Shown piece after piece: positions 1-6,250 of a stretch of 6,250 bases of DNA. A model generated the notes under the pieces. It worked only from the letters and a program-made list of their open reading frames with translations. It ran no database searches and was not told the origin of the DNA. The stretch is from a virus, in the IMG/VR virus record IMGVR_UViG_3300010385_000053. One strand, written 5' to 3'. A program made the translations under genes and the position numbers. Each line of letters starts with the position of its first letter. The stretch's first letter is position 1.

Positions 1-250
1 TTATTCTTGCACTGTGTAAAAGTGATGAAATAACAATTAAACCTGATATAGCTTGAAACAGGATTATGAAAGCTGAAAAGCTAAAGCAAAGGCTTTGGCC
101 TGTAGTAAGTACAATGCATTTTTCTTCTGGTAGTTCGGCATTGGGTAGCCAGTCATCATATTTATCTGCGTACTGGCTAAGGTTAACTATTTCTTTAGGT
201 ATTTCAGAACCAGCAATAGGAACACAATCAGCAGCACCCCCTTCACAATC
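1..250. repeat. Terminal redundancy, copy 1 (identical to 6001-6250). It is a circular-permutation or concatemer overlap, not a biological repeat.
   Basis: Base-by-base comparison of lines 1-250 and 6001-6250 shows no mismatch. The repeat lies inside a continuous coding frame. Confidence 0.95.
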
Positions 251-1519
251 TCCACCGCCCTCACCTTCGCCATCACCGCCACCATTACCACCACCACTAC
301 CGCCACCGCCACCAATGGGTTTATCGGTTAAAATCTGGTTACCTTCTCTAACAGCGGAAATTAAATCATTCATTTTTGATGCCTTAACAGCTTCAAGTTT
401 GTCATTTTTTTGAAGGCCAACGAATACAGTAGTATGAAAATCATCAATAGCAGTTTTTAAAACATTGGTGTTATTGGTGGCCGTATCGACCATTTTATTA
501 TGTAACTTGTTATCATTTTCAATTTGAACTTGTGTGTTATTAGACTGCTCTTTTATTAAGTTTCGCAACATACAGGCATTATCATCACTGGCGCAATCTT
601 CAAGATCCTTTTTAGGTTTTTCTGTTTCATCCTCTTTACTACCATCATTATTAGCATCATCATCTTTATCGGTTGGCGGTGCTGGTTCATTATTACAAAA
701 CATAATGGTAACGCCATCAACGGTATTAGTTTCACACTGGCCTTCGTCACCTTCATCAGATAACTTTTTATTATCATATGGTTTATCACCACAAGCAGCA
801 CCTTGAGAAACACCCAGTGCATACTGGTCAGAAGTTACATTTTCAGATTTTACAGAATATGCACACCCATCATTGCAGTACATACCACCGCCATCAAAAG
901 GAACACCACCAGTCATTTTACTAGAATATAAATCCTCGCCAGAACCAGCAGCAGGACATTCCTTAGGCATACATGAATCAGAACCCATAGCCTTTGAAAC
1001 AGCCTTAGAATGATAACCAGCTGGGCAATCTTTTTCTGGCTCTGGTTCATCTTCAAGTGATTTTGCACACATTAATGAACCATCATTTTGCGGGTCAGAA
1101 TAATAAGAGTGAATATGTTTTGGTGCGCCATTTGGAGGACAAGATTTTAACTCAACAACACCGTAATCATTATAAATATTAAAGTTTTTAGGGTTGCGGC
1201 AACCACGAGCAGGATCAAAAGACGAACCACAGTGAACATATTTAAACGTAAAACGCACAGTATCATCATTAATTTTTTTTGATGTGACACCTGAATCTGA
1301 GACATATCTACTACTTGATATACGATCATCAATAGCACGTTGAAATGCTGATTCACAGTGAGCAACGGTATCAGTAATGCGACCGTAGGGCCCAAAACAT
1401 TTATTTTTGACCTCTTCTGATTTAGGGGTTAATAAATTATCTAAATCTAGTCCAGTAGCATGAGAATCAGAAACAAAAAAAGCGCTCGTTAGCGCCAATA
1501 TATATATTAGTAATCGCAT
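1..1519 (-). CDS. pIII-like minor coat / host-adsorption protein, 511 aa in total. This segment holds codons 1-506 and the first base of codon 507. The frame runs off position 1 and continues across the circular junction to the TAA at 5984-5986.
   Basis: Manual translation from the ATG at 1519-1517 (AAGG lies 7 nt upstream) found no stop down to position 1. The N-terminus MRLLIYILALTSAFFVSDSHA/TG looks like a signal peptide. About 20 Cys are spread through the N-terminal two thirds. There is an acidic linker (DKDDDANNDGSKEDETEKPKKDLED) and a Gly-rich linker GGGGGSGGGNGGGDGEGEGGGD at 248-313. The C-terminus is a hydrophobic anchor (LCFSFSAFIILFQAISGLIVISSLLHSARIIAGAI). The gene sits between the major coat and pVI-like genes. 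Confidence 0.8.
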   Translation of the reverse strand, partial: MRLLIYILALTSAFFVSDSHATGLDLDNLLTPKSEEVKNKCFGPYGRITDTVAHCESAFQRAIDDRISSSRYVSDSGVTSKKINDDTVRFTFKYVHCGSSFDPARGCRNPKNFNIYNDYGVVELKSCPPNGAPKHIHSYYSDPQNDGSLMCAKSLEDEPEPEKDCPAGYHSKAVSKAMGSDSCMPKECPAAGSGEDLYSSKMTGGVPFDGGGMYCNDGCAYSVKSENVTSDQYALGVSQGAACGDKPYDNKKLSDEGDEGQCETNTVDGVTIMFCNNEPAPPTDKDDDANNDGSKEDETEKPKKDLEDCASDDNACMLRNLIKEQSNNTQVQIENDNKLHNKMVDTATNNTNVLKTAIDDFHTTVFVGLQKNDKLEAVKASKMNDLISAVREGNQILTDKPIGGGGGSGGGNGGGDGEGEGGGDCEGGAADCVPIAGSEIPKEIVNLSQYADKYDDWLPNAELPEEKCIVLTTGQSLCFSFSAFIILFQAISGLIVISSLLHSARI

Positions 1520-1533
1520 GGGAGCGCCTTGTT

Positions 1534-1605
1534 TTAATCATCGAAAAGTATATAAAGTGCTAAAAGTCCTGAGACAATTAGCACTGTGTCTAATGTGATG
1601 AACAT
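1534..1605 (-). CDS. 23-aa hydrophobic micro-ORF (MFITLDTVLIVSGLLALYILFDD), a candidate pVII/pIX-type minor virion-tip protein.
   Basis: Its ATG at 1605-1603 overlaps the major-coat TAA (1607-1605) as TAATG, and its TAA is at 1536-1534. It encodes a single hydrophobic helix with an acidic tail. It fills the otherwise empty gap between the coat and pIII-like genes. It falls below the ORF-track size cutoff. Confidence 0.5.
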   Translation of the reverse strand: MFITLDTVLIVSGLLALYILFDD

Positions 1606-1826
1606 TAGCTAAAAATAGTACCTTTAAGCCATTTCCAACCAATAGCAACAAAACCAGCAGTTAAAAATACACCACCAATTAAGTTAGCGTTATCAGTAAA
1701 AAACGCTTGGAACTGGGTAGTTGCAGCGGTAACTTCAGCAGCAGCTTCAGCAAATGCAGAACCAGAAACAACAGCAGTAACTAAAACACCAGCTTTTGCT
1801 AACTTACCTTTAAATATATTTTTCAT
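1605..1826 (-). CDS. Major coat protein precursor (pVIII/Cep-like), 73 aa.
   Basis: The 26-aa signal peptide MKNIFKGKLAKAGVLVTAVVSGSAFA is followed by a 47-aa mature peptide. That peptide has an acidic N-terminus (EAAAEV..D), a hydrophobic core (LIGGVFLTAGFVAIGW) and a basic C-terminus (KWLKG). There is a strong SD (TAAGGAAAATAACATG). The gene lies upstream of the pIII-like gene. Confidence 0.85.
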   Translation of the reverse strand: MKNIFKGKLAKAGVLVTAVVSGSAFAEAAAEVTAATTQFQAFFTDNANLIGGVFLTAGFVAIGWKWLKGTIFS

Positions 1827-3550: not shown

Positions 3551-3741
3551 TATATAGCACCTTCAGATACTAATTGGCGGTAATTAGAATTAGTAATCTC
3601 AACTGTTTTACAATCAAACTCATGTAAAACCCAAACACGAAACTGGTACATATTATCGAAATAGTCATACACGCGAACACCATCTAAGTCATAAGTAACC
3701 TGAACACCCGCTTGTTTGTTATTTTCGTAATACACAATCAT
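3550..3741 (-). CDS. Hypothetical 63-aa protein, first ORF of the replication operon.
   Basis: The ORF exactly fills the space between the promoter region and rep. Its TAA (3552-3550) overlaps the rep ATG (3550-3548) as TAATG. The protein is rich in aromatic and beta-branched residues. No convincing SD lies upstream, which lowers confidence. Confidence 0.45.
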   Translation of the reverse strand: MIVYYENNKQAGVQVTYDLDGVRVYDYFDNMYQFRVWVLHEFDCKTVEITNSNYRQLVSEGAI

Positions 3742-3859
3742 TTCTAAGTTTCTAAGACAGTCAATTTGTAAGTAGATTAGTTTCTAGCAATCCAAAAGTC
3801 AACAATGAACGTAATAATTGTTTATAATTAAGAAATTTCAACAATACAAAGGGTAAATA
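3741..3859. promoter_or_regulatory. Divergent promoter/operator region between the replication operon (-) and the regulator gene (+).
   Basis: On the minus strand, TTGACT (3802-3797) is followed by a 17-nt spacer and TAATCT (3779-3774). On the plus strand, TCAACA (3799-3804) is followed by an 18-nt spacer and TATAAT (3823-3828), so the two -35 boxes overlap. Tandem TTTCTAAG repeats lie at 3741-3748 and 3749-3756. A third partial copy, TTTCTAG, lies at 3781-3787 inside the minus-promoter spacer. Confidence 0.5.
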
Positions 3860-4051
3860 ATGCCAACAAAGCACATAGACGATATAACGTGGCGCAAGGT
3901 TGAAAAGGAATTAGTAAAGGCGGTTGTATCAACACAAACGTCAATCAAGGATGTAGATATATTAAAAATACTTATAAACGTAGGTATAAAAAACATAGAT
4001 AAAAGTGATTATAAGGAACTGACAAAAAGAAAGAACAAGCCTGAGAGTTAA
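3860..4051 (+). CDS. Small divergently transcribed DNA-binding regulator or repressor candidate (RstR position), 63 aa.
   Basis: It is the only plus-strand gene. The SD AAAGGG lies 6 nt upstream of the ATG, a TATAAT promoter lies upstream, and an intrinsic terminator follows directly. The sequence pattern is a short N-terminal strand (KHI), helix (DDITWRKVEKELVKAVV), turn (STQTS), helix (IKDVDILKILINVGIKNI) and then a basic tail, which is compatible with a ribbon-helix-helix fold. Confidence 0.55.
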   Translation: MPTKHIDDITWRKVEKELVKAVVSTQTSIKDVDILKILINVGIKNIDKSDYKELTKRKNKPES

Positions 4052-4070
4052 GGTTTAGTTGAGAGTTATA

Positions 4071-4100
4071 CCCCGTAATACAGTTACGGGGTTTTTTTTT
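4071..4100 (+). terminator. Rho-independent terminator of the regulator gene.
   Basis: A perfect 8-bp stem pairs CCCCGTAA (4071-4078) with TTACGGGG (4084-4091). The loop is 5 nt (TACAG) and is followed by T9 (4092-4100), 20 nt after the stop codon. Confidence 0.85.
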
Positions 4101-4327
4101 GACTTCCCAGCAAACACAGTGAGGGGCTCGGTGCTCGCCCTTCTCTCTGTGTTTTTGCTGTTGGGAATTTTAAGAGAAAAGAGAAGTTTATCAGAGGGGC
4201 AATTTAATTTTATTTTCATTAACTGGCTATGTGCAGCCATAAGAAAGCCGATGTCGGTTAGCTGGTTTGGGTTTCCGCTTCGCTATCGGCTGTCGCCAAG
4301 TAAATATTATAATATAGAATTCAAATA
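4101..4327. other. Large structured intergenic region: candidate replication origin(s), packaging signal or attP.
   Basis: It is non-coding and lies between convergent gene ends. It is locally much more G+C-rich than the rest of the genome, with 26 of 40 bases G/C at 4101-4140. A bulged hairpin spans 4108-4160: a 12-bp outer stem with a 2-nt bulge, a 7-bp inner stem and the 9-nt loop TCGGTGCTC. GAGGGGC occurs twice (4121-4127 and 4194-4200). A 15-nt purine run lies at 4172-4186. A small hairpin pairs TGGCT with AGCCA (4224-4239). A 7-bp stem pairs AGCCGAT with ATCGGCT (4246-4252 / 4285-4291). The palindrome ATATTATAATAT lies at 4304-4315. Confidence 0.6.
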
Positions 4328-5674
4328 CTAGAATTGATGAAGAAATATCTTTGTATCTTTAAACTTTAGTATGGGCAAATCTTCATTTAGGTAAATGAAA
4401 TAACCTAATTTCTCTAAGTAGTTCGAGCTTAGAAGAATAACTTCAGGCTCCTTTATTTGCTCACTTCTGGTTTGCTCTTCATCATCCTTTGTTGTAAAGC
4501 TAATAGCCTTTTGCTTTTCAACCTCTTGCCCAGTAACACAATTTATATAGTGCTCAACTTCCAAAATACCATTAGTACGTTTCAACTGATAACCACCATA
4601 TTCATAACTTTTACAAAGCTCATTCAATGGGTGTTTAAACTTAGTTGTTTTAAACTGGATGTTTTCGACCTCTTTGGTTTGACTGGGTAATGACTTAGGT
4701 GCAATGGCCTGTTGCTCTGAGTCATTTATTTTTGATTCCGGTTCATCAGAAGTAAGCCCTAAACTAACAAGTAATGTGTAAAACAAATAAATAATAAACG
4801 GTATCAACAAAAGCATTAGCATTAATTTAGGCGGCATCTTAAATTTAGCTGTATGCTCATCCGCAGACCAATAGACACCATAAAAATTAGAGTCGCGCTT
4901 AATGGCTTTGGTAACACATTTTTCTAAATCACCTGAATAATCGGTACTAAATTGCTTATCCCTAGAAAAACGAGTGATAACAGCCCCGCCCATTGGTCTA
5001 AAATAATGAACGTGCATACCAGTACATTTTTGAATAACAGCATCTAAAAAAGTATAGTGCTGGGTTACTAAGTGGATATCAACCCCGCTATGCCTATGCT
5101 TTTGAAATTGAGTGTAATAATAAGGACGCTTGGCACTGTTTGCCATTGGTGGAAAGTAGTCTTGGCACTCGTCAAACAAAGCTATAGAGCCGTTAGGCAG
5201 TTCAGGCCATCTAGTTGGGTCATCGGTATGCGTCCAGTGGTAATTTAAAAGCTTAATAGTTTCAACCGTTGGGTTTTCAGATTCTTCTAAAAACAAATCT
5301 AAGGCTTTTAAGTTTGATTTTGGATAGCACTTCCTACACCAAGAAACAAACAGATCAATAACTGACTGTTCAGAATAGCGAGCATAGTTAGGTGCTAACC
5401 AAGGAACATCTGAAACATCAACCAAACGTGCTTCAGCATGAACAGTTTTTATTATCTTTTTATAGCGCCCCACCTTAGGTGAGTTTTGAATAGATGGGTA
5501 ATAATAACCATAAAAAAACCCCTGAAAACTATTACAAAAATCTAAGTCCAATAAGAAAGCTTTAATATTATTATAATATTTAGGCTTTTGTGTAACCGCA
5601 GGATCATTACATATTTCTTTAAGGGAATTTAGAGTTTTGCCCGCGCCTGGTACTCCAGTTCTTAAGTAAATCAT
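4328..5674 (-). CDS. zot: Zot/pI-family phage assembly NTPase, 448 aa.
   Basis: The N-terminal Walker A is MIYLRTGVPGAGKT and the Walker B is IALFDECQ. A single transmembrane segment (LMLMLLLIPFIIYLFYTLLVSLGL) lies around residues 285-309, followed by a C-terminal domain of about 140 aa. The start overlaps the pVI-like stop as ATGA (5674-5671), and TAAGG lies 8 nt upstream. Confidence 0.85.
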   Translation of the reverse strand: MIYLRTGVPGAGKTLNSLKEICNDPAVTQKPKYYNNIKAFLLDLDFCNSFQGFFYGYYYPSIQNSPKVGRYKKIIKTVHAEARLVDVSDVPWLAPNYARYSEQSVIDLFVSWCRKCYPKSNLKALDLFLEESENPTVETIKLLNYHWTHTDDPTRWPELPNGSIALFDECQDYFPPMANSAKRPYYYTQFQKHRHSGVDIHLVTQHYTFLDAVIQKCTGMHVHYFRPMGGAVITRFSRDKQFSTDYSGDLEKCVTKAIKRDSNFYGVYWSADEHTAKFKMPPKLMLMLLLIPFIIYLFYTLLVSLGLTSDEPESKINDSEQQAIAPKSLPSQTKEVENIQFKTTKFKHPLNELCKSYEYGGYQLKRTNGILEVEHYINCVTGQEVEKQKAISFTTKDDEEQTRSEQIKEPEVILLSSNYLEKLGYFIYLNEDLPILKFKDTKIFLHQF

Positions 5675-5982
5675 GGCGCAGACCTTACACCCAATTTAGT
5701 AACAGAACCCGCACTTGTTAAACCGCGAATAGTTAAAGCAGCAGCATAAGAACCAAGCATTATTCCAACTGCAATATCCAATTTTGCATATTTTAAAACA
5801 GCTATTATTTCAACTGGCAAACCTGAAGCATTTGCTGCAATCAACTGGTAAACATAATCAATCCCAAACTGACCTAGTTCATAAGTTACATAGCCAAACC
5901 CCAAACCCACTAAAACCTTAGAAACTAAACTAGGAAGTAAAGCGGCAAGGCTAACGAAAAAAGTTTGTAATAATAAAGGCAT
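5671..5982 (-). CDS. pVI/Ace-like minor coat protein, 103 aa, with several hydrophobic segments.
   Basis: It lies between the pIII-like and Zot-like genes. The sequence is highly hydrophobic (MPLLLQTFFVSLAALLPSLVSKVLVGLGFGYV...). I chose the ATG at 5982-5980 because AGGAG (5996-5992) lies 9 nt upstream. The ORF track's TTG at 6000 would overlap the pIII-like gene by 17 nt. Confidence 0.7.
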   Translation of the reverse strand: MPLLLQTFFVSLAALLPSLVSKVLVGLGFGYVTYELGQFGIDYVYQLIAANASGLPVEIIAVLKYAKLDIAVGIMLGSYAAALTIRGLTSAGSVTKLGVRSAP

Positions 5983-5983
5983 A

Positions 5984-6250
5984 TTATATTGCTCCTGCAA
6001 TTATTCTTGCACTGTGTAAAAGTGATGAAATAACAATTAAACCTGATATAGCTTGAAACAGGATTATGAAAGCTGAAAAGCTAAAGCAAAGGCTTTGGCC
6101 TGTAGTAAGTACAATGCATTTTTCTTCTGGTAGTTCGGCATTGGGTAGCCAGTCATCATATTTATCTGCGTACTGGCTAAGGTTAACTATTTCTTTAGGT
6201 ATTTCAGAACCAGCAATAGGAACACAATCAGCAGCACCCCCTTCACAATC
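5984..6250 (-). CDS. C-terminal 88 codons plus stop of the same pIII-like gene, seen again in the wrap-around copy. It shows how the ORF terminates.
   Basis: The frame is the same as 1..1519 because the offset of 6000 is divisible by 3. It reads ...HSARIIAGAI then TAA at 5986-5984, ending 1 nt before the pVI-like ATG at 5982. Confidence 0.8.
   Translation of the reverse strand, partial: DCEGGAADCVPIAGSEIPKEIVNLSQYADKYDDWLPNAELPEEKCIVLTTGQSLCFSFSAFIILFQAISGLIVISSLLHSARIIAGAI
6001..6250. repeat. Terminal redundancy, copy 2 (identical to 1-250).
   Basis: Same comparison as for copy 1. Confidence 0.95.

What the first reader, a model, noticed from the sequence alone, without database searches (positions are those of the whole stretch)
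1..1519. The largest gene in the window is missing from the ORF track: a junction-spanning 511-aa pIII-like adsorption protein
Manual translation of the minus strand from the ATG at 1519 is open to position 1. It continues through 6000 to the TAA at 5984-5986. The architecture is typical of pIII: a signal peptide, a Cys-rich N-terminal region (about 20 Cys, an even number consistent with periplasmic disulfides), an acidic linker, an Asn/Lys-rich helical-looking segment, a Gly-rich linker and a C-terminal membrane anchor. I recognise no known receptor-binding domain in the N-terminal region, so it is the likely determinant of an uncharacterised host or pilus specificity. The four track ORFs covering this stretch (66-413 +, 534-806 +, 556-822 -, 1147-1395 -) are frame or strand shadows of this gene.
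Basis: seen in the sequence. Interest (0 to 1): 0.7.

Follow-up and report, generated by a model that had tools for sequence, protein, structure and literature searches.

The report
Filamentous-phage attachment protein with swappable head
The 'missing' 511-residue gene is real: it is the tip (attachment and anchoring) protein of a small circular filamentous phage. It was overlooked only because it crosses the point where the circle was cut, and its one unusual trait is a head domain that differs completely between otherwise near-identical phages.

Summary
Observation confirmed. Window 6001-6250 repeats 1-250 exactly, so this is a 6000-bp circle. The minus-strand ORF from ATG 1519 through position 1/6000 to TAA 5984-5986 encodes 511 aa with 20 Cys. 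It is absent from the ORF list only because ORFs running off an end are not listed.

Differences from relatives fall on third codon positions (6/1/49), and the four overlapping ORFs carry stops in most relatives. The genome is an f327-like inovirus, and the gene sits in the pIII slot: major coat, this gene, pVI-like DUF2523, Zot/pI. It is 48% identical to f327 ORF461, which has unknown function.

No Pfam, PDB or BFVD relative was found for its domains. The pIII role therefore rests on four things: gene position, membrane topology, a predicted Cys-bounded beta-hairpin before the C-terminal membrane helix as in f1 pIII, and co-variation of the C-terminal module with the type of pVI gene downstream.

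The new result is that residues ~19-160 form a replaceable cassette. Five genomes 93-98% identical elsewhere lose all similarity exactly there. The left edge abuts a nucleotide-conserved hairpin plus U-run inside the signal-peptide codons.

Verdict: ordinary gene class, annotation artefact explained, interpretation supported. It is a new member of a known kind, of moderate interest.

The parts
1..1519 (-). Main part of the 511-aa gene: codons 1-506 plus the first base of codon 507
   Evidence: Open frame. Third-position bias of substitutions versus L002, L003 and L001. 107 homologues.
5984..6000 (-). End of the gene across the circle junction: last two bases of codon 507, codons 508-511 and TAA 5984-5986
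6001..6250 (.). Exact repeat of window 1-250, the overlap of a circular contig. It holds a second copy of codons ~424-507.
   Evidence: 0 mismatches.
1524..1530 (-). Shine-Dalgarno-like AAGGCGC, 4-10 nt upstream of the ATG
   Evidence: An AAGGCG core is conserved upstream of the start in most relatives; L025 keeps only AAGGC.
1457..1519 (-). Signal-peptide-like N-terminus, residues 1-21 (MRLLIYILALTSAFFVSDSHA, then T)
   Evidence: Sequence. Residues 9-15 are invariant or nearly so in the family. The f327 paper predicts a signal peptide for the homologue ORF461.
1471..1496 (-). Hairpin GGCGCT-AACG-AGCGCT followed by TTTTTTTGTTT, inside codons 8-17. It is terminator-like and marks the left border of the variable cassette.
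   Evidence: scan; stem and U-run are kept in 19 of 20 relatives; codon invariance 5/9 here versus 1/65 elsewhere, p=4.5e-5.: -8.3 kcal/mol, z=-1.8.
1040..1456 (-). Hypervariable N-terminal domain, residues 22-160, with 6 Cys. At nucleotide level the replaced cassette is window ~1031/1050-1467.
   Evidence: No nucleotide similarity here to five genomes that are 93-98% identical elsewhere. The same domain (65% aa, 71% nt) occurs on a different backbone in P0106/L005.
692..1039 (-). Conserved Cys-rich beta domain, residues 161-276, with 8 Cys (DCPAGYHS...MYCNDGCAYSV...ACGDKPYDNKKL)
   Evidence: Most conserved block of the family. AF2 pLDDT 80-96. No PDB or BFVD structural relative.
584..691 (-). 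Acidic, Pro/Asp/Lys-rich linker, residues 277-312
   Evidence: 14 D/E of 36 residues. Low pLDDT at 281-286.
320..583 (-). Helical region, residues 313-400. It includes Cys316 (its likely partner Cys309 lies in the preceding linker) and predicted helices 314-368 and 375-393.
248..319 (-). Gly-rich flexible linker, residues 401-424. It is the boundary at which the C-terminal module is exchanged within the family.
   Evidence: 16 G of 24 residues. Type A and type B modules diverge after this point.
1..247 (-). C-terminal anchoring module, 'type A', residues 425-507 (continues at 5987-6000). It holds Cys425/432, a beta-hairpin at 466-480 bounded by Cys468/Cys478, and membrane helix 481-510.
   Evidence: AF2 secondary structure and hydropathy. 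It is always followed by a DUF2523 pVI-like gene, in 16 of 16 loci.
5671..5982 (-). pVI-like minor coat gene (DUF2523, 103 aa) starting at ATG 5982, one base after the TAA of the 511-aa gene. It is the presumed partner in the virion tip.
   Evidence: Pfam DUF2523 E 1.3e-12, phrog_1242 'minor head protein', and MP(L/Y/V)LIQ starts in all relatives.
1605..1826 (-). Major coat protein gene (73 aa) immediately upstream
   Evidence: Weak Phage_Coat_B and phrog_1646 'major coat protein' matches. The f327 homologue ORF74 was shown to be the major coat protein by N-terminal sequencing.

Best explanation
The ORF is the gene for the pIII-equivalent minor coat protein of a 6-kb f327-like filamentous phage (Inoviridae).

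Shown here:
- It is a real, selected coding frame.
- It occupies the gIII slot.
- It is modular: signal sequence, hypervariable head, conserved Cys-rich domain, acidic linker, helical region, Gly linker, then a Cys-bounded hairpin plus membrane helix.
- The head is exchanged as a cassette between otherwise near-identical genomes.
- The C-terminal module is exchanged together with the downstream pVI-type gene.

Inferred mechanism, by analogy with Ff, IKe and CTXphi:
1. The protein is exported by Sec, and its 20 Cys form disulfides module by module (6+8+2+2+2).
2. It stays anchored in the inner membrane by its C-terminal helix.
3. At the end of assembly, about five copies cap the virion together with the DUF2523 pVI-like protein and release it.
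4. On infection the hypervariable head (residues ~22-160) binds the strain-specific primary receptor, most likely a pilus.
5. The conserved Cys-rich domain (161-276) engages a conserved envelope component. A TolA-like co-receptor is the best guess, giving the IKe-type order of variable binder first and conserved binder second.
6. The helical region and anchor then open the tip for DNA entry.
7. Head cassettes are swapped by homologous recombination between co-occurring phages. The conserved arms would be the signal-peptide/hairpin sequence on the left and the DCPAGYHS-coding sequence on the right.
For: Coding and family:
- ORF; differences by codon position 6/1/49, 7/3/45, 73/51/151.
- 107 homologues; phrog_19407 over the full length, E 1.5e-96; 48% identity to ORF461 of phage f327, with the same gene order.

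Slot:
- Searches give the order Rep_trans, DUF1293/SSB, 65 aa, coat, this gene, DUF2523, Zot.
- The genome has no other candidate for the role.

Topology and hairpin:
- strands 466-470 and 476-480 flanked by Cys468/Cys478, then helix 481-510.
- Compare f1 pIII, with a Cys354/Cys371 beta-hairpin before the M helix that is essential for assembly (PMC10175506).

Partnership with pVI:
- 16 of 16 type-A loci are followed by DUF2523.
- 3 of 3 type-B loci (L024-L026, with unrelated replication modules) are followed by DUF5455. DUF5455 is the Pfam family of M13, IKe and If1 pVI.
- The type-B module aligns to the Ff/IKe/If1 pIII C-terminus with hhalign probability 77.6%, E 1.9e-5.

Cassette:
- five genomes 93-98% identical lose similarity at window 1467 down to 1031-1050.
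- 206 of 211 protein pairs with a backbone at least 93% identical have heads under 50% identical or unalignable. 20 pairs show the reverse pattern.
- the same head sits on a different backbone in P0106.
Against: - No experiment exists for any member of the family. The f327 paper found no similarity for ORF461 and placed it in the structural module by position only.
- This protein's own type-A C-terminal module has no detectable similarity to Ff pIII or to the type-B module.
- No Pfam, PDB-sequence or Foldseek match to pIII N1/N2 or any other receptor-binding domain. Receptor and co-receptor assignments are therefore pure analogy.
- The AF2 model is weak for residues 22-120 and 393-447.
- The hairpin pLDDT is only ~66-74.
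- The host is not known. Relatives come from Pseudoalteromonas and from one Vibrio casei assembly.
Confidence: 0.8

Rival explanations
1. It is the tip protein, but the domain roles are reversed or different. The conserved Cys-rich domain binds the primary receptor, a conserved pilus or envelope protein. The hypervariable head would then not be the host-range determinant; it would vary to escape something else, such as host defence or exclusion proteins, resident-prophage superinfection exclusion, or grazers and antibody-like binders.
For: Only conservation patterns are available, with no binding data. Similar head types occur in records attributed to different genera: the P0008 head (Vibrio casei assembly) resembles the P0072 head (Pseudoalteromonas) in alignment A1. 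A strictly host-determining role therefore does not obviously follow.
Against: In every characterised inovirus the variable outermost domain is the pilus binder and the conserved one the TolA binder (established knowledge for Ff, If1, IKe and CTXphi; summarised in PMC12477597). Cassette exchange of the distal domain is the usual signature of receptor switching in phages.
Confidence: 0.13
2. It is not a virion protein but a phage-encoded, membrane-anchored periplasmic accessory protein, for example a superinfection-exclusion or host-modulating factor. The true tip protein would then be something else or be dispensable.
For: No homology to any proven structural protein. PHROG annotates the family as 'unknown function'.
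Against: - The 6-kb genome has no other ORF with a signal sequence, large ectodomain and C-terminal anchor.
- The gene is invariably between the coat gene and the pVI-like gene in the loci where both neighbours are on the contig.
- Its C-terminal module switches in step with the pVI family.
- The sister type-B module is homologous to the Ff pIII anchor.
Confidence: 0.05
3. The long ORF is an artefact, either a chance open frame or a mis-assembly at the circular junction, and one of the shorter overlapping ORFs is the real gene.
For: None beyond its absence from the ORF list.
Against: - Exact 250-bp terminal repeat.
- An identical 511-aa protein is already in the JGI collection (P0001).
- The gene is contiguous in 20 or more independent contigs.
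- Codon-position bias.
- Stops in the alternative frames of relatives.
Confidence: 0.01

Closest known systems
ORF461 of Pseudoalteromonas filamentous phage f327 (replicative form pSM327, NC_013636; Yu et al., ISME J 2014, PMC4817708); phrog_19407
   Same: - True homologue: 48% identity over the full length, and a full-length phrog_19407 match.
- Same gene order and nearly the same gene sizes: 386, 115/116, 65, 73/74, 511/461, 103 and 448 aa.
- Same type-A C-terminal module followed by DUF2523.
   Different: The head domain (residues ~19-160) is not alignable with that of ORF461. Backbone nucleotide identity is only 73-80%. Neither protein has an experimentally shown function; the f327 authors reported no similarity to known phage proteins.
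pIII (g3p) of Ff phages M13, fd and f1
   Same: - Genome slot between gVIII and gVI.
- Signal peptide, then receptor-binding ectodomains, flexible linkers, a helical C-region, a Cys-bounded beta-hairpin and a C-terminal membrane helix.
- Partnership with pVI, implied by module co-variation.
- The type-B sister module of the family aligns to the Ff pIII anchor.
   Different: - No Phage_Coat_A (N1) domain (against the M13 positive control).
- No sequence or structural similarity of any domain of this protein to Ff pIII.
- The partner is DUF2523, not the Ff-type pVI family DUF5455.
- The Gly-rich linker sits after the helical region instead of before it.
- 20 Cys versus 8 in M13 pIII.
g3p of IKe and I2-2 (N-pilus-specific coliphages)
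   Same: The order of ectodomains is a lineage-specific pilus binder first and a conserved TolA-binding domain second. This is established knowledge from Jakob et al. 2012, recalled and not read here. It is consistent with M13 N1 (residues 22-105) aligning to positions 136-224 of the IKe-type profile phrog_4150. The order matches the variable-then-conserved layout found here.
   Different: No sequence or fold similarity was detected. Whether the conserved Cys-rich domain binds TolA is untested.
pIII(CTX)/OrfU of Vibrio cholerae phage CTXphi
   Same: A marine gammaproteobacterial inovirus with Rep_trans-type replication, a Zot-type pI, and a three-part pIII that uses a type IV pilus plus TolA (established knowledge).
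   Different: No detectable similarity. The PDB searches, which should include the OrfU N1-TolA complex, gave nothing. OrfU was not compared directly as a full sequence.
Receptor-binding-domain cassette exchange in tailed-phage tail fibres and spikes
   Same: A conserved anchoring part carries a distal binding domain that is replaced by recombination at conserved junctions, so near-identical genomes carry unrelated tips.
   Different: Here it occurs in a 6-kb ssDNA filamentous phage. The variable module is N-terminal, directly after the signal peptide. No dedicated diversity machinery (reverse transcriptase or invertase) is encoded.

Membership tests
Inovirus pIII-type adsorption/termination protein (functional class) | Gene located between the major coat gene and the pVI-type gene, upstream of pI/Zot | tested here: met
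   The same order holds in all relatives with enough flanking DNA.
Inovirus pIII-type adsorption/termination protein (functional class) | N-terminal Sec signal peptide | tested here: inconclusive
   Sequence inspection only: R2, a 14-residue hydrophobic core, and small residues at -3/-1 (S-H-A then T). The region is highly conserved in the family, and a signal peptide is predicted for f327 ORF461 by its authors. No signal-peptide predictor was available.
Inovirus pIII-type adsorption/termination protein (functional class) | C-terminal membrane helix preceded by a disulfide-bounded beta-hairpin | tested here: met
   AF2 predicts strands 466-470 and 476-480 flanked by Cys468/Cys478, then helix 481-510. 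Hydropathy agrees. The f1 reference feature is in PMC10175506. This is a prediction of moderate confidence, not a solved structure.
Inovirus pIII-type adsorption/termination protein (functional class) | Flexible low-complexity linkers between ectodomains and anchor | tested here: met
   Acidic stretch 277-312 and Gly-rich stretch 401-424. Both have low pLDDT.
Inovirus pIII-type adsorption/termination protein (functional class) | Functional partnership with pVI in the virion tip | tested here: met
   The evidence is indirect. The C-terminal module type co-varies perfectly with the downstream pVI family: A with DUF2523 in 16 of 16 loci, B with DUF5455 in 3 of 3.
Inovirus pIII-type adsorption/termination protein (functional class) | Present at the virion tip and required for release and infection | not testable with these tools
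   Needs virion proteomics, immunogold labelling and genetics.
Ff-type pIII (homologous family: Pfam Phage_Coat_A N1 domain plus Ff C domain) | Phage_Coat_A (PF05357) TolA-binding N1 domain | tested here: not met
   No Pfam hit at E<=0.1. The M13 control scores 6e-66.
Ff-type pIII (homologous family: Pfam Phage_Coat_A N1 domain plus Ff C domain) | Sequence or profile homology of the C-terminal domain to Ff, IKe or If1 pIII | tested here: not met
   Type-A module versus the Ff/IKe/If1 profile: probability 1.7%. Only the type-B sister module matches, with probability 77.6% and E 1.9e-5.
Ff-type pIII (homologous family: Pfam Phage_Coat_A N1 domain plus Ff C domain) | Structural similarity to solved pIII domains | tested here: not met
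   Foldseek against PDB: the full-length model gave best E 0.1 with no pIII in the top 50. The 121-285 domain model gave best E ~1. A profile search against PDB sequences gave only linker noise.
f327 ORF461 family (phrog_19407) | Full-length profile match and shared synteny | tested here: met
   phrog_19407 E 1.5e-96, residues 1-510 against profile positions 4-522 of 522. 48% identity to ORF461. Collinear genome.
Diversity-generating retroelement (DGR) target protein | Reverse transcriptase and template repeat near the variable region | tested here: not met
   No RT or any spare coding capacity in the 6-kb genome. The variation consists of whole-domain replacement with indels, not adenine-specific substitutions.

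The most novel reading that the evidence does not exclude
The f327-like inoviruses carry an organised head-swapping system. A hypervariable receptor-binding cassette (residues ~19-160) is bounded by two nucleotide-conserved recombination arms. The left arm is a hairpin plus U-run embedded in the signal-peptide codons, and it doubles as the post-coat-gene transcription terminator or attenuator that keeps tip-protein expression low. The same left arm is present on lineages with unrelated replication modules, and one head type is shared with a protein of a different pIII-like backbone, so the head can move between inovirus lineages. The conserved Cys-rich domain behind it would be a new fold for co-receptor (TolA-like) binding.
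Probability: 0.25. Interest if true: 0.6.

Novelty: new member of a known kind. Interest (0 to 1): 0.38.

Why it matters
For annotation, this is a reminder that circular contigs printed with an overlap hide their junction-spanning gene. Here that is the largest and biologically most informative gene of the phage.

For biology, the work assigns a role to a protein family that public databases call 'hypothetical' or 'unknown function' (f327 ORF461, phrog_19407). This rests on an argument independent of homology: the anchor module co-varies with the pVI type.

It also shows that in this abundant marine group of Pseudoalteromonas/Vibrio-associated filamentous phages, host-recognition heads are exchanged as cassettes among genomes that are otherwise 93-98% identical.

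That makes the group a natural library of inovirus receptor-binding domains. Such a library would be useful for host-range studies and for M13 retargeting of the kind described in PMC12477597. The finding also gives precise junctions for making chimeras.

Tried and rejected
- Megablast of the genome and tblastn of the protein against INPHARED phages gave no match. The closest isolate by the Zot gene is Shewanella phage Dolos, at 39% identity. Its pIII-slot protein shows no significant profile similarity, although it also ends in a Cys...Cys plus membrane-helix motif.
- The Pfam scan of the protein returned nothing.
- The profile search against PDB sequences returned only Gly-linker and coiled-coil noise.
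- Foldseek of the full model against PDB and BFVD gave nothing below E 0.05. The weak top BFVD hits included two inovirus pIII-slot proteins (Stenotrophomonas SMA6 at E 0.06, Vibrio VSK 'Memb3' at E 0.2). I do not count these as evidence.
- Foldseek of a dedicated model of residues 121-285 gave nothing.
- The weak NTF2-like hits for the head were rejected, because pLDDT there is 55-65.
- The search for homologous proteins with the head domain alone returned nothing, not even the parent protein, so it is uninformative.
- The look-up of encoding contigs for P0001 found no record, so the sample of origin is unknown.
- DGR-type hypermutation was rejected: there is no RT, and whole domains are replaced.
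- Rfam returned no family for the hairpin or anywhere else.
- RNAalifold on the 5' region found no two-sided covariation. The sequences are too conserved to prove a structure.
Full report
**1. The observation**

The last 250 bases of the window (6001-6250) are an exact copy of the first 250. The sequence is therefore a 6000-bp circle written with an overlap.

On the minus strand, the frame starting at ATG 1519 is open for 506 codons down to position 2. Codon 507 uses positions 1, 6000 and 5999, and the frame stops at TAA 5986-5984. The product is 511 aa with exactly 20 cysteines.

It is the largest gene of the genome and is absent from the mechanical ORF list. That is only because the list omits ORFs that run off an end of the source.

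- a hydrophobic N-terminus;
- an acidic stretch at 277-312;
- an Asn/Lys-rich region at 313-400, predicted helical;
- a Gly-rich stretch at 401-424;
- a hydrophobic C-terminus.

**2. It is a real coding frame; the overlapping ORFs are shadows**

- 107 homologues were found by word-seeded HMMER. An exhaustive search found 46 cluster representatives, all ~440-560 aa proteins from 2-9 kb contigs.
- Against two genomes that are ~95% identical, nucleotide differences in the conserved part fall 6/1/49 and 7/3/45 on codon positions 1/2/3. Against f327 they fall 73/51/151.
- The ATG is conserved in every relative examined, and an AAGGCG Shine-Dalgarno-like motif upstream is conserved in nearly all.
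Their equivalent frames carry stop codons in most of 18 relatives, while the main frame is open in all. The first acquires a new stop even in the 95%-identical genomes.

**3. Context**

All genes but one are on the minus strand, in canonical inovirus order:

| Window coordinates | Gene |
|---|---|
| 3550-2390 | Rep_trans replication protein |
| 2389-2042 | DUF1293 / phrog 'ssDNA-binding protein' |
| 2039-1842 | 65-aa ORF |
| 1826-1605 | 73-aa major-coat-like protein |
| 1519-1 and 6000-5984 | the 511-aa gene |
| 5982-5671 | DUF2523 pVI-like protein |
| 5674-4328 | Zot/pI |

The only relative from a cultured phage is Pseudoalteromonas phage f327 (pSM327, NC_013636). It has the same gene order and almost the same gene sizes. 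Its ORF461 is 48% identical to this protein.

The f327 authors showed ORF74 to be the major coat protein. They placed ORF461 in the structural module by map position only and reported no similarity to known proteins (PMC4817708). PHROGs lists the family (phrog_19407, full-length match E 1.5e-96) as 'unknown function'.

**4. Anatomy**

Alignment of the family (A1 and A2), AF2 models and composition give seven modules:

| Module | Residues | Features |
|---|---|---|
| Signal-like sequence | 1-21 | nearly invariant ALxSAFFV |
| Head | ~22-160 | hypervariable, 6 Cys |
| Cys-rich beta domain | 161-276 | 8 Cys, the most conserved block, pLDDT 80-96 |
| Acidic linker | 277-312 | 14 D/E of 36 |
| Helical region | 313-400 | follows the Cys309/316 pair; helices 314-368 and 375-393 |
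| Gly-rich linker | 401-424 | 16 G of 24 |
| C-terminal module | 425-511 | Cys425/432, short helix, beta-hairpin 466-480 flanked by Cys468/478, membrane helix 481-510 |

The cysteines are even in number within every module (6+8+2+2+2). This fits intramodule disulfides formed in the periplasm; that is an inference.

**5. Is it pIII?**

By homology to the classical family the answer is no:
- no Phage_Coat_A domain (the M13 control is positive);
- no hit of the family profile to any PDB sequence;
- no Foldseek hit of the full model to PDB or BFVD;
- no Foldseek hit of a dedicated model of residues 121-285 (pLDDT 83.8) to PDB;
- the protein's own C-terminal module does not match an Ff/IKe/If1 pIII C-domain profile.

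By function the case is good, and it rests on three independent lines.

(a) Slot and topology, as described above.

(b) The predicted Cys-bounded beta-hairpin immediately before the C-terminal membrane helix reproduces the H1 hairpin (Cys354/Cys371) plus M helix of f1 pIII. The cryo-EM study found these elements essential for assembly (PMC10175506).

(c) Module co-variation:
- Within this one family, the segment after the Gly linker exists in two unrelated versions. Type A, as here, occurs in 91 of 107 proteins. Type B occurs in 13.
- In 16 of 16 loci, type A is followed by a DUF2523 gene.
- In 3 of 3 loci, type B is followed by a DUF5455 gene. Those three loci have quite different replication modules: Phage_CRI/G2P_X_C, Phage_GPA with an integrase, and an unknown type.
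- DUF5455 turns out to be the Pfam family of M13, If1 and IKe pVI (E 4e-35, 4e-21 and 2.5e-8).
- The type-B module aligns to the C-terminus of Ff/IKe/If1 pIII, covering the Cys loop and membrane helix. The hhalign probability is 77.6%, E 1.9e-5, with 32% identity over 50 columns.

So the part of the protein that should contact pVI is exchanged together with pVI. In one version both partners are recognisably the Ff pair. This is the strongest evidence available without experiments that the family is the pIII equivalent.

**6. The unexpected part: a head cassette**

Five independent genomes are 93-98% identical to the window along the whole circle. They are MH649151.1 'Inoviridae sp.', a contig of a Vibrio casei assembly, and three SRA-derived contigs.
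- In every one, similarity vanishes at window 1467 and resumes at 1031-1050. That corresponds to residues ~18 to ~157-163.
- At protein level, 206 of 211 pairs with a backbone at least 93% identical have heads that are under 50% identical or unalignable.
- 20 pairs show the reverse pattern, with heads up to 27 points more similar than backbones.
- The head of this protein has only one close relative (65% aa, 71% nt). It sits on a different pIII-like backbone (P0106, phrog_31956), and similarity ends at the same place, residue 165.
- Most heads are still distantly related to each other (single-linkage cluster of 83 of 98). They share a CPP...CAK motif at their C-terminal end. This looks like one very old, fast-diverging domain family reshuffled by recombination, not unrelated insertions.
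- No diversity-generating enzyme is encoded.
- A second, less constant replacement hot spot is the regulatory region, ~3733-4327.

**7. Mechanism proposed**

Shown:
- the gene is coding;
- the protein is modular;
- the head is exchanged as a cassette;
- the anchor module co-varies with pVI.

Inferred by analogy with Ff, If1, IKe and CTXphi:
1. Sec export and inner-membrane anchoring.
2. Capping and release of the filament together with the DUF2523 protein.
3. Primary receptor (probably pilus) recognition by the head.
4. Engagement of a conserved envelope component, possibly TolA, by the Cys-rich domain. This is the IKe-type order of variable binder first and conserved binder second.
5. Opening of the tip through the helical region.

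The acidic 277-312 stretch is the better analogue of the long Ff linker between binding and C domains. The Gly-rich 401-424 stretch, lying between the helices and the hairpin, corresponds better to linker L4 of f1 pIII.

**8. Side observation inside the finding's coordinates**

The only convincing terminator-like site on the coding strand of the structural module lies inside the gene, in codons 8-17. It reads GGCGCT-AACG-AGCGCT followed by TTTTTTTGTTT (window 1496-1471), about 110 nt after the coat gene stop.
- Stem and U-run are kept in 19 of 20 relatives, including the lineages with other replication modules. The loop varies, and the closing pair varies G.U, G-C or A-U.
- Among 74 alignment columns with an invariant degenerate amino acid, only 6 are codon-invariant. 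Five of those lie in codons 2-15, giving 5/9 versus 1/65 (Fisher p=4.5e-5).
- There is therefore nucleotide-level constraint beyond the protein.
- The hairpin is modest (-8.3 kcal/mol, z=-1.8).
- RNAalifold prefers an alternative pairing of the 3' arm and U-run with the Shine-Dalgarno region. No two-sided covariation is available.
- In Ff the terminator after gene VIII sets the coat-to-pIII ratio. An embedded equivalent is a reasonable but unproven reading.
- The element also coincides with the left border of the cassette (1468/1467), so it may simply be the conserved recombination arm.

**9. Comparison and novelty**

The protein works like pIII and is a member of the f327 ORF461 family. It is not a detectable member of the Ff pIII homologous family.

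Variable receptor-binding domains on inovirus g3p proteins are well known and are already exploited for retargeting M13 (PMC12477597). The kind is therefore known. Three things are new here:
- the functional assignment of this database-'hypothetical' family by anchor/pVI co-variation;
- the sharply bounded head cassette among near-identical genomes;
- the conserved embedded hairpin.

I rate it a new member of a known kind, with moderate interest.

**10. Limits**

- There is no experimental evidence for any family member.
- Host and sample of origin are unknown. GC content is 36.5%.
- The AF2 model of the head is of low confidence.
- The signal peptide and membrane helix were judged without dedicated predictors.
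- Only three type-B loci were available for the co-variation count.

Noticed in passing
window 1471-1496 (minus strand), inside codons 8-17 of the 511-aa gene: A terminator-like hairpin (GGCGCT AACG AGCGCT) plus U-run is embedded in the signal-peptide codons. It is conserved at nucleotide level in 19 of 20 relatives, including lineages with unrelated replication modules. Synonymous sites are frozen here (5/9 codon-invariant columns versus 1/65 elsewhere, p=4.5e-5). It coincides with the left border of the variable cassette. An alternative pairing of its 3' arm with the Shine-Dalgarno region is also possible.
   Followed up: partly
window 3860-4051 (+), with 3799-3828 (+) and 4070-4092 (+): This is the only plus-strand gene: a 63-aa ORF matching phrog_5219 over its full length (E 2.6e-21). 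It is preceded by the best promoter-like site of the genome (TCAACA-18-TATAAT) and followed by a 10-bp-stem terminator with a T8 run. It is probably the divergently transcribed regulator (f327 has an RstR-like ORF in that orientation). The overlapping minus-strand ORF 3838-3996 is then probably a shadow.
   Followed up: partly
window 5980-6000: The ORF list starts the pVI-like gene at TTG 6000 (109 aa). All relatives instead start with M-P-(L/Y/V/F)-L-I-Q at the ATG equivalent to 5982 (103 aa), one base after the TAA of the 511-aa gene (TAAT-ATG). The two tip genes are therefore tightly packed and not overlapping.
   Followed up: partly
window ~3733-4327: This is a second replacement hot spot. 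In 3 of 5 genomes that are 93-98% identical elsewhere, the regulatory/intergenic region is unalignable or only ~70% identical. That is as expected for an immunity region.
   Followed up: no
L024 4744-5082, L025 8660-8998, L026 2478-2798; M13 L020 2856-3194: Pfam DUF5455 ('family of unknown function') is the family of M13, If1 and IKe pVI (E 4e-35, 4e-21, 2.5e-8). It is therefore a minor coat protein family. This is an annotation gap in Pfam.
   Followed up: yes
L024, L025, L026 (relatives): The same head, Cys-rich-domain and helix backbone occurs on phages with entirely different replication modules: Phage_CRI/G2P_X_C plus Phage_DNA_bind, or Phage_GPA plus an integrase inside a 55-kb Pseudoalteromonas scaffold. 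The adsorption module therefore moves between inovirus lineages.
   Followed up: partly
L003 (GCA_052098515.1, Vibrio casei assembly, 5830-bp contig): A genome 94-97% identical to the window sits as a stand-alone contig in a Vibrio casei assembly, whereas the more distant relatives are from Pseudoalteromonas. The window's GC content is 36.5%. The host genus of this phage is therefore uncertain.
   Followed up: no
window 1-250 and 6001-6250: An exact 250-bp terminal repeat marks a circular contig. Any feature within 250 bp of either end is seen twice, and any ORF crossing the junction is lost from linear ORF calls.
   Followed up: yes
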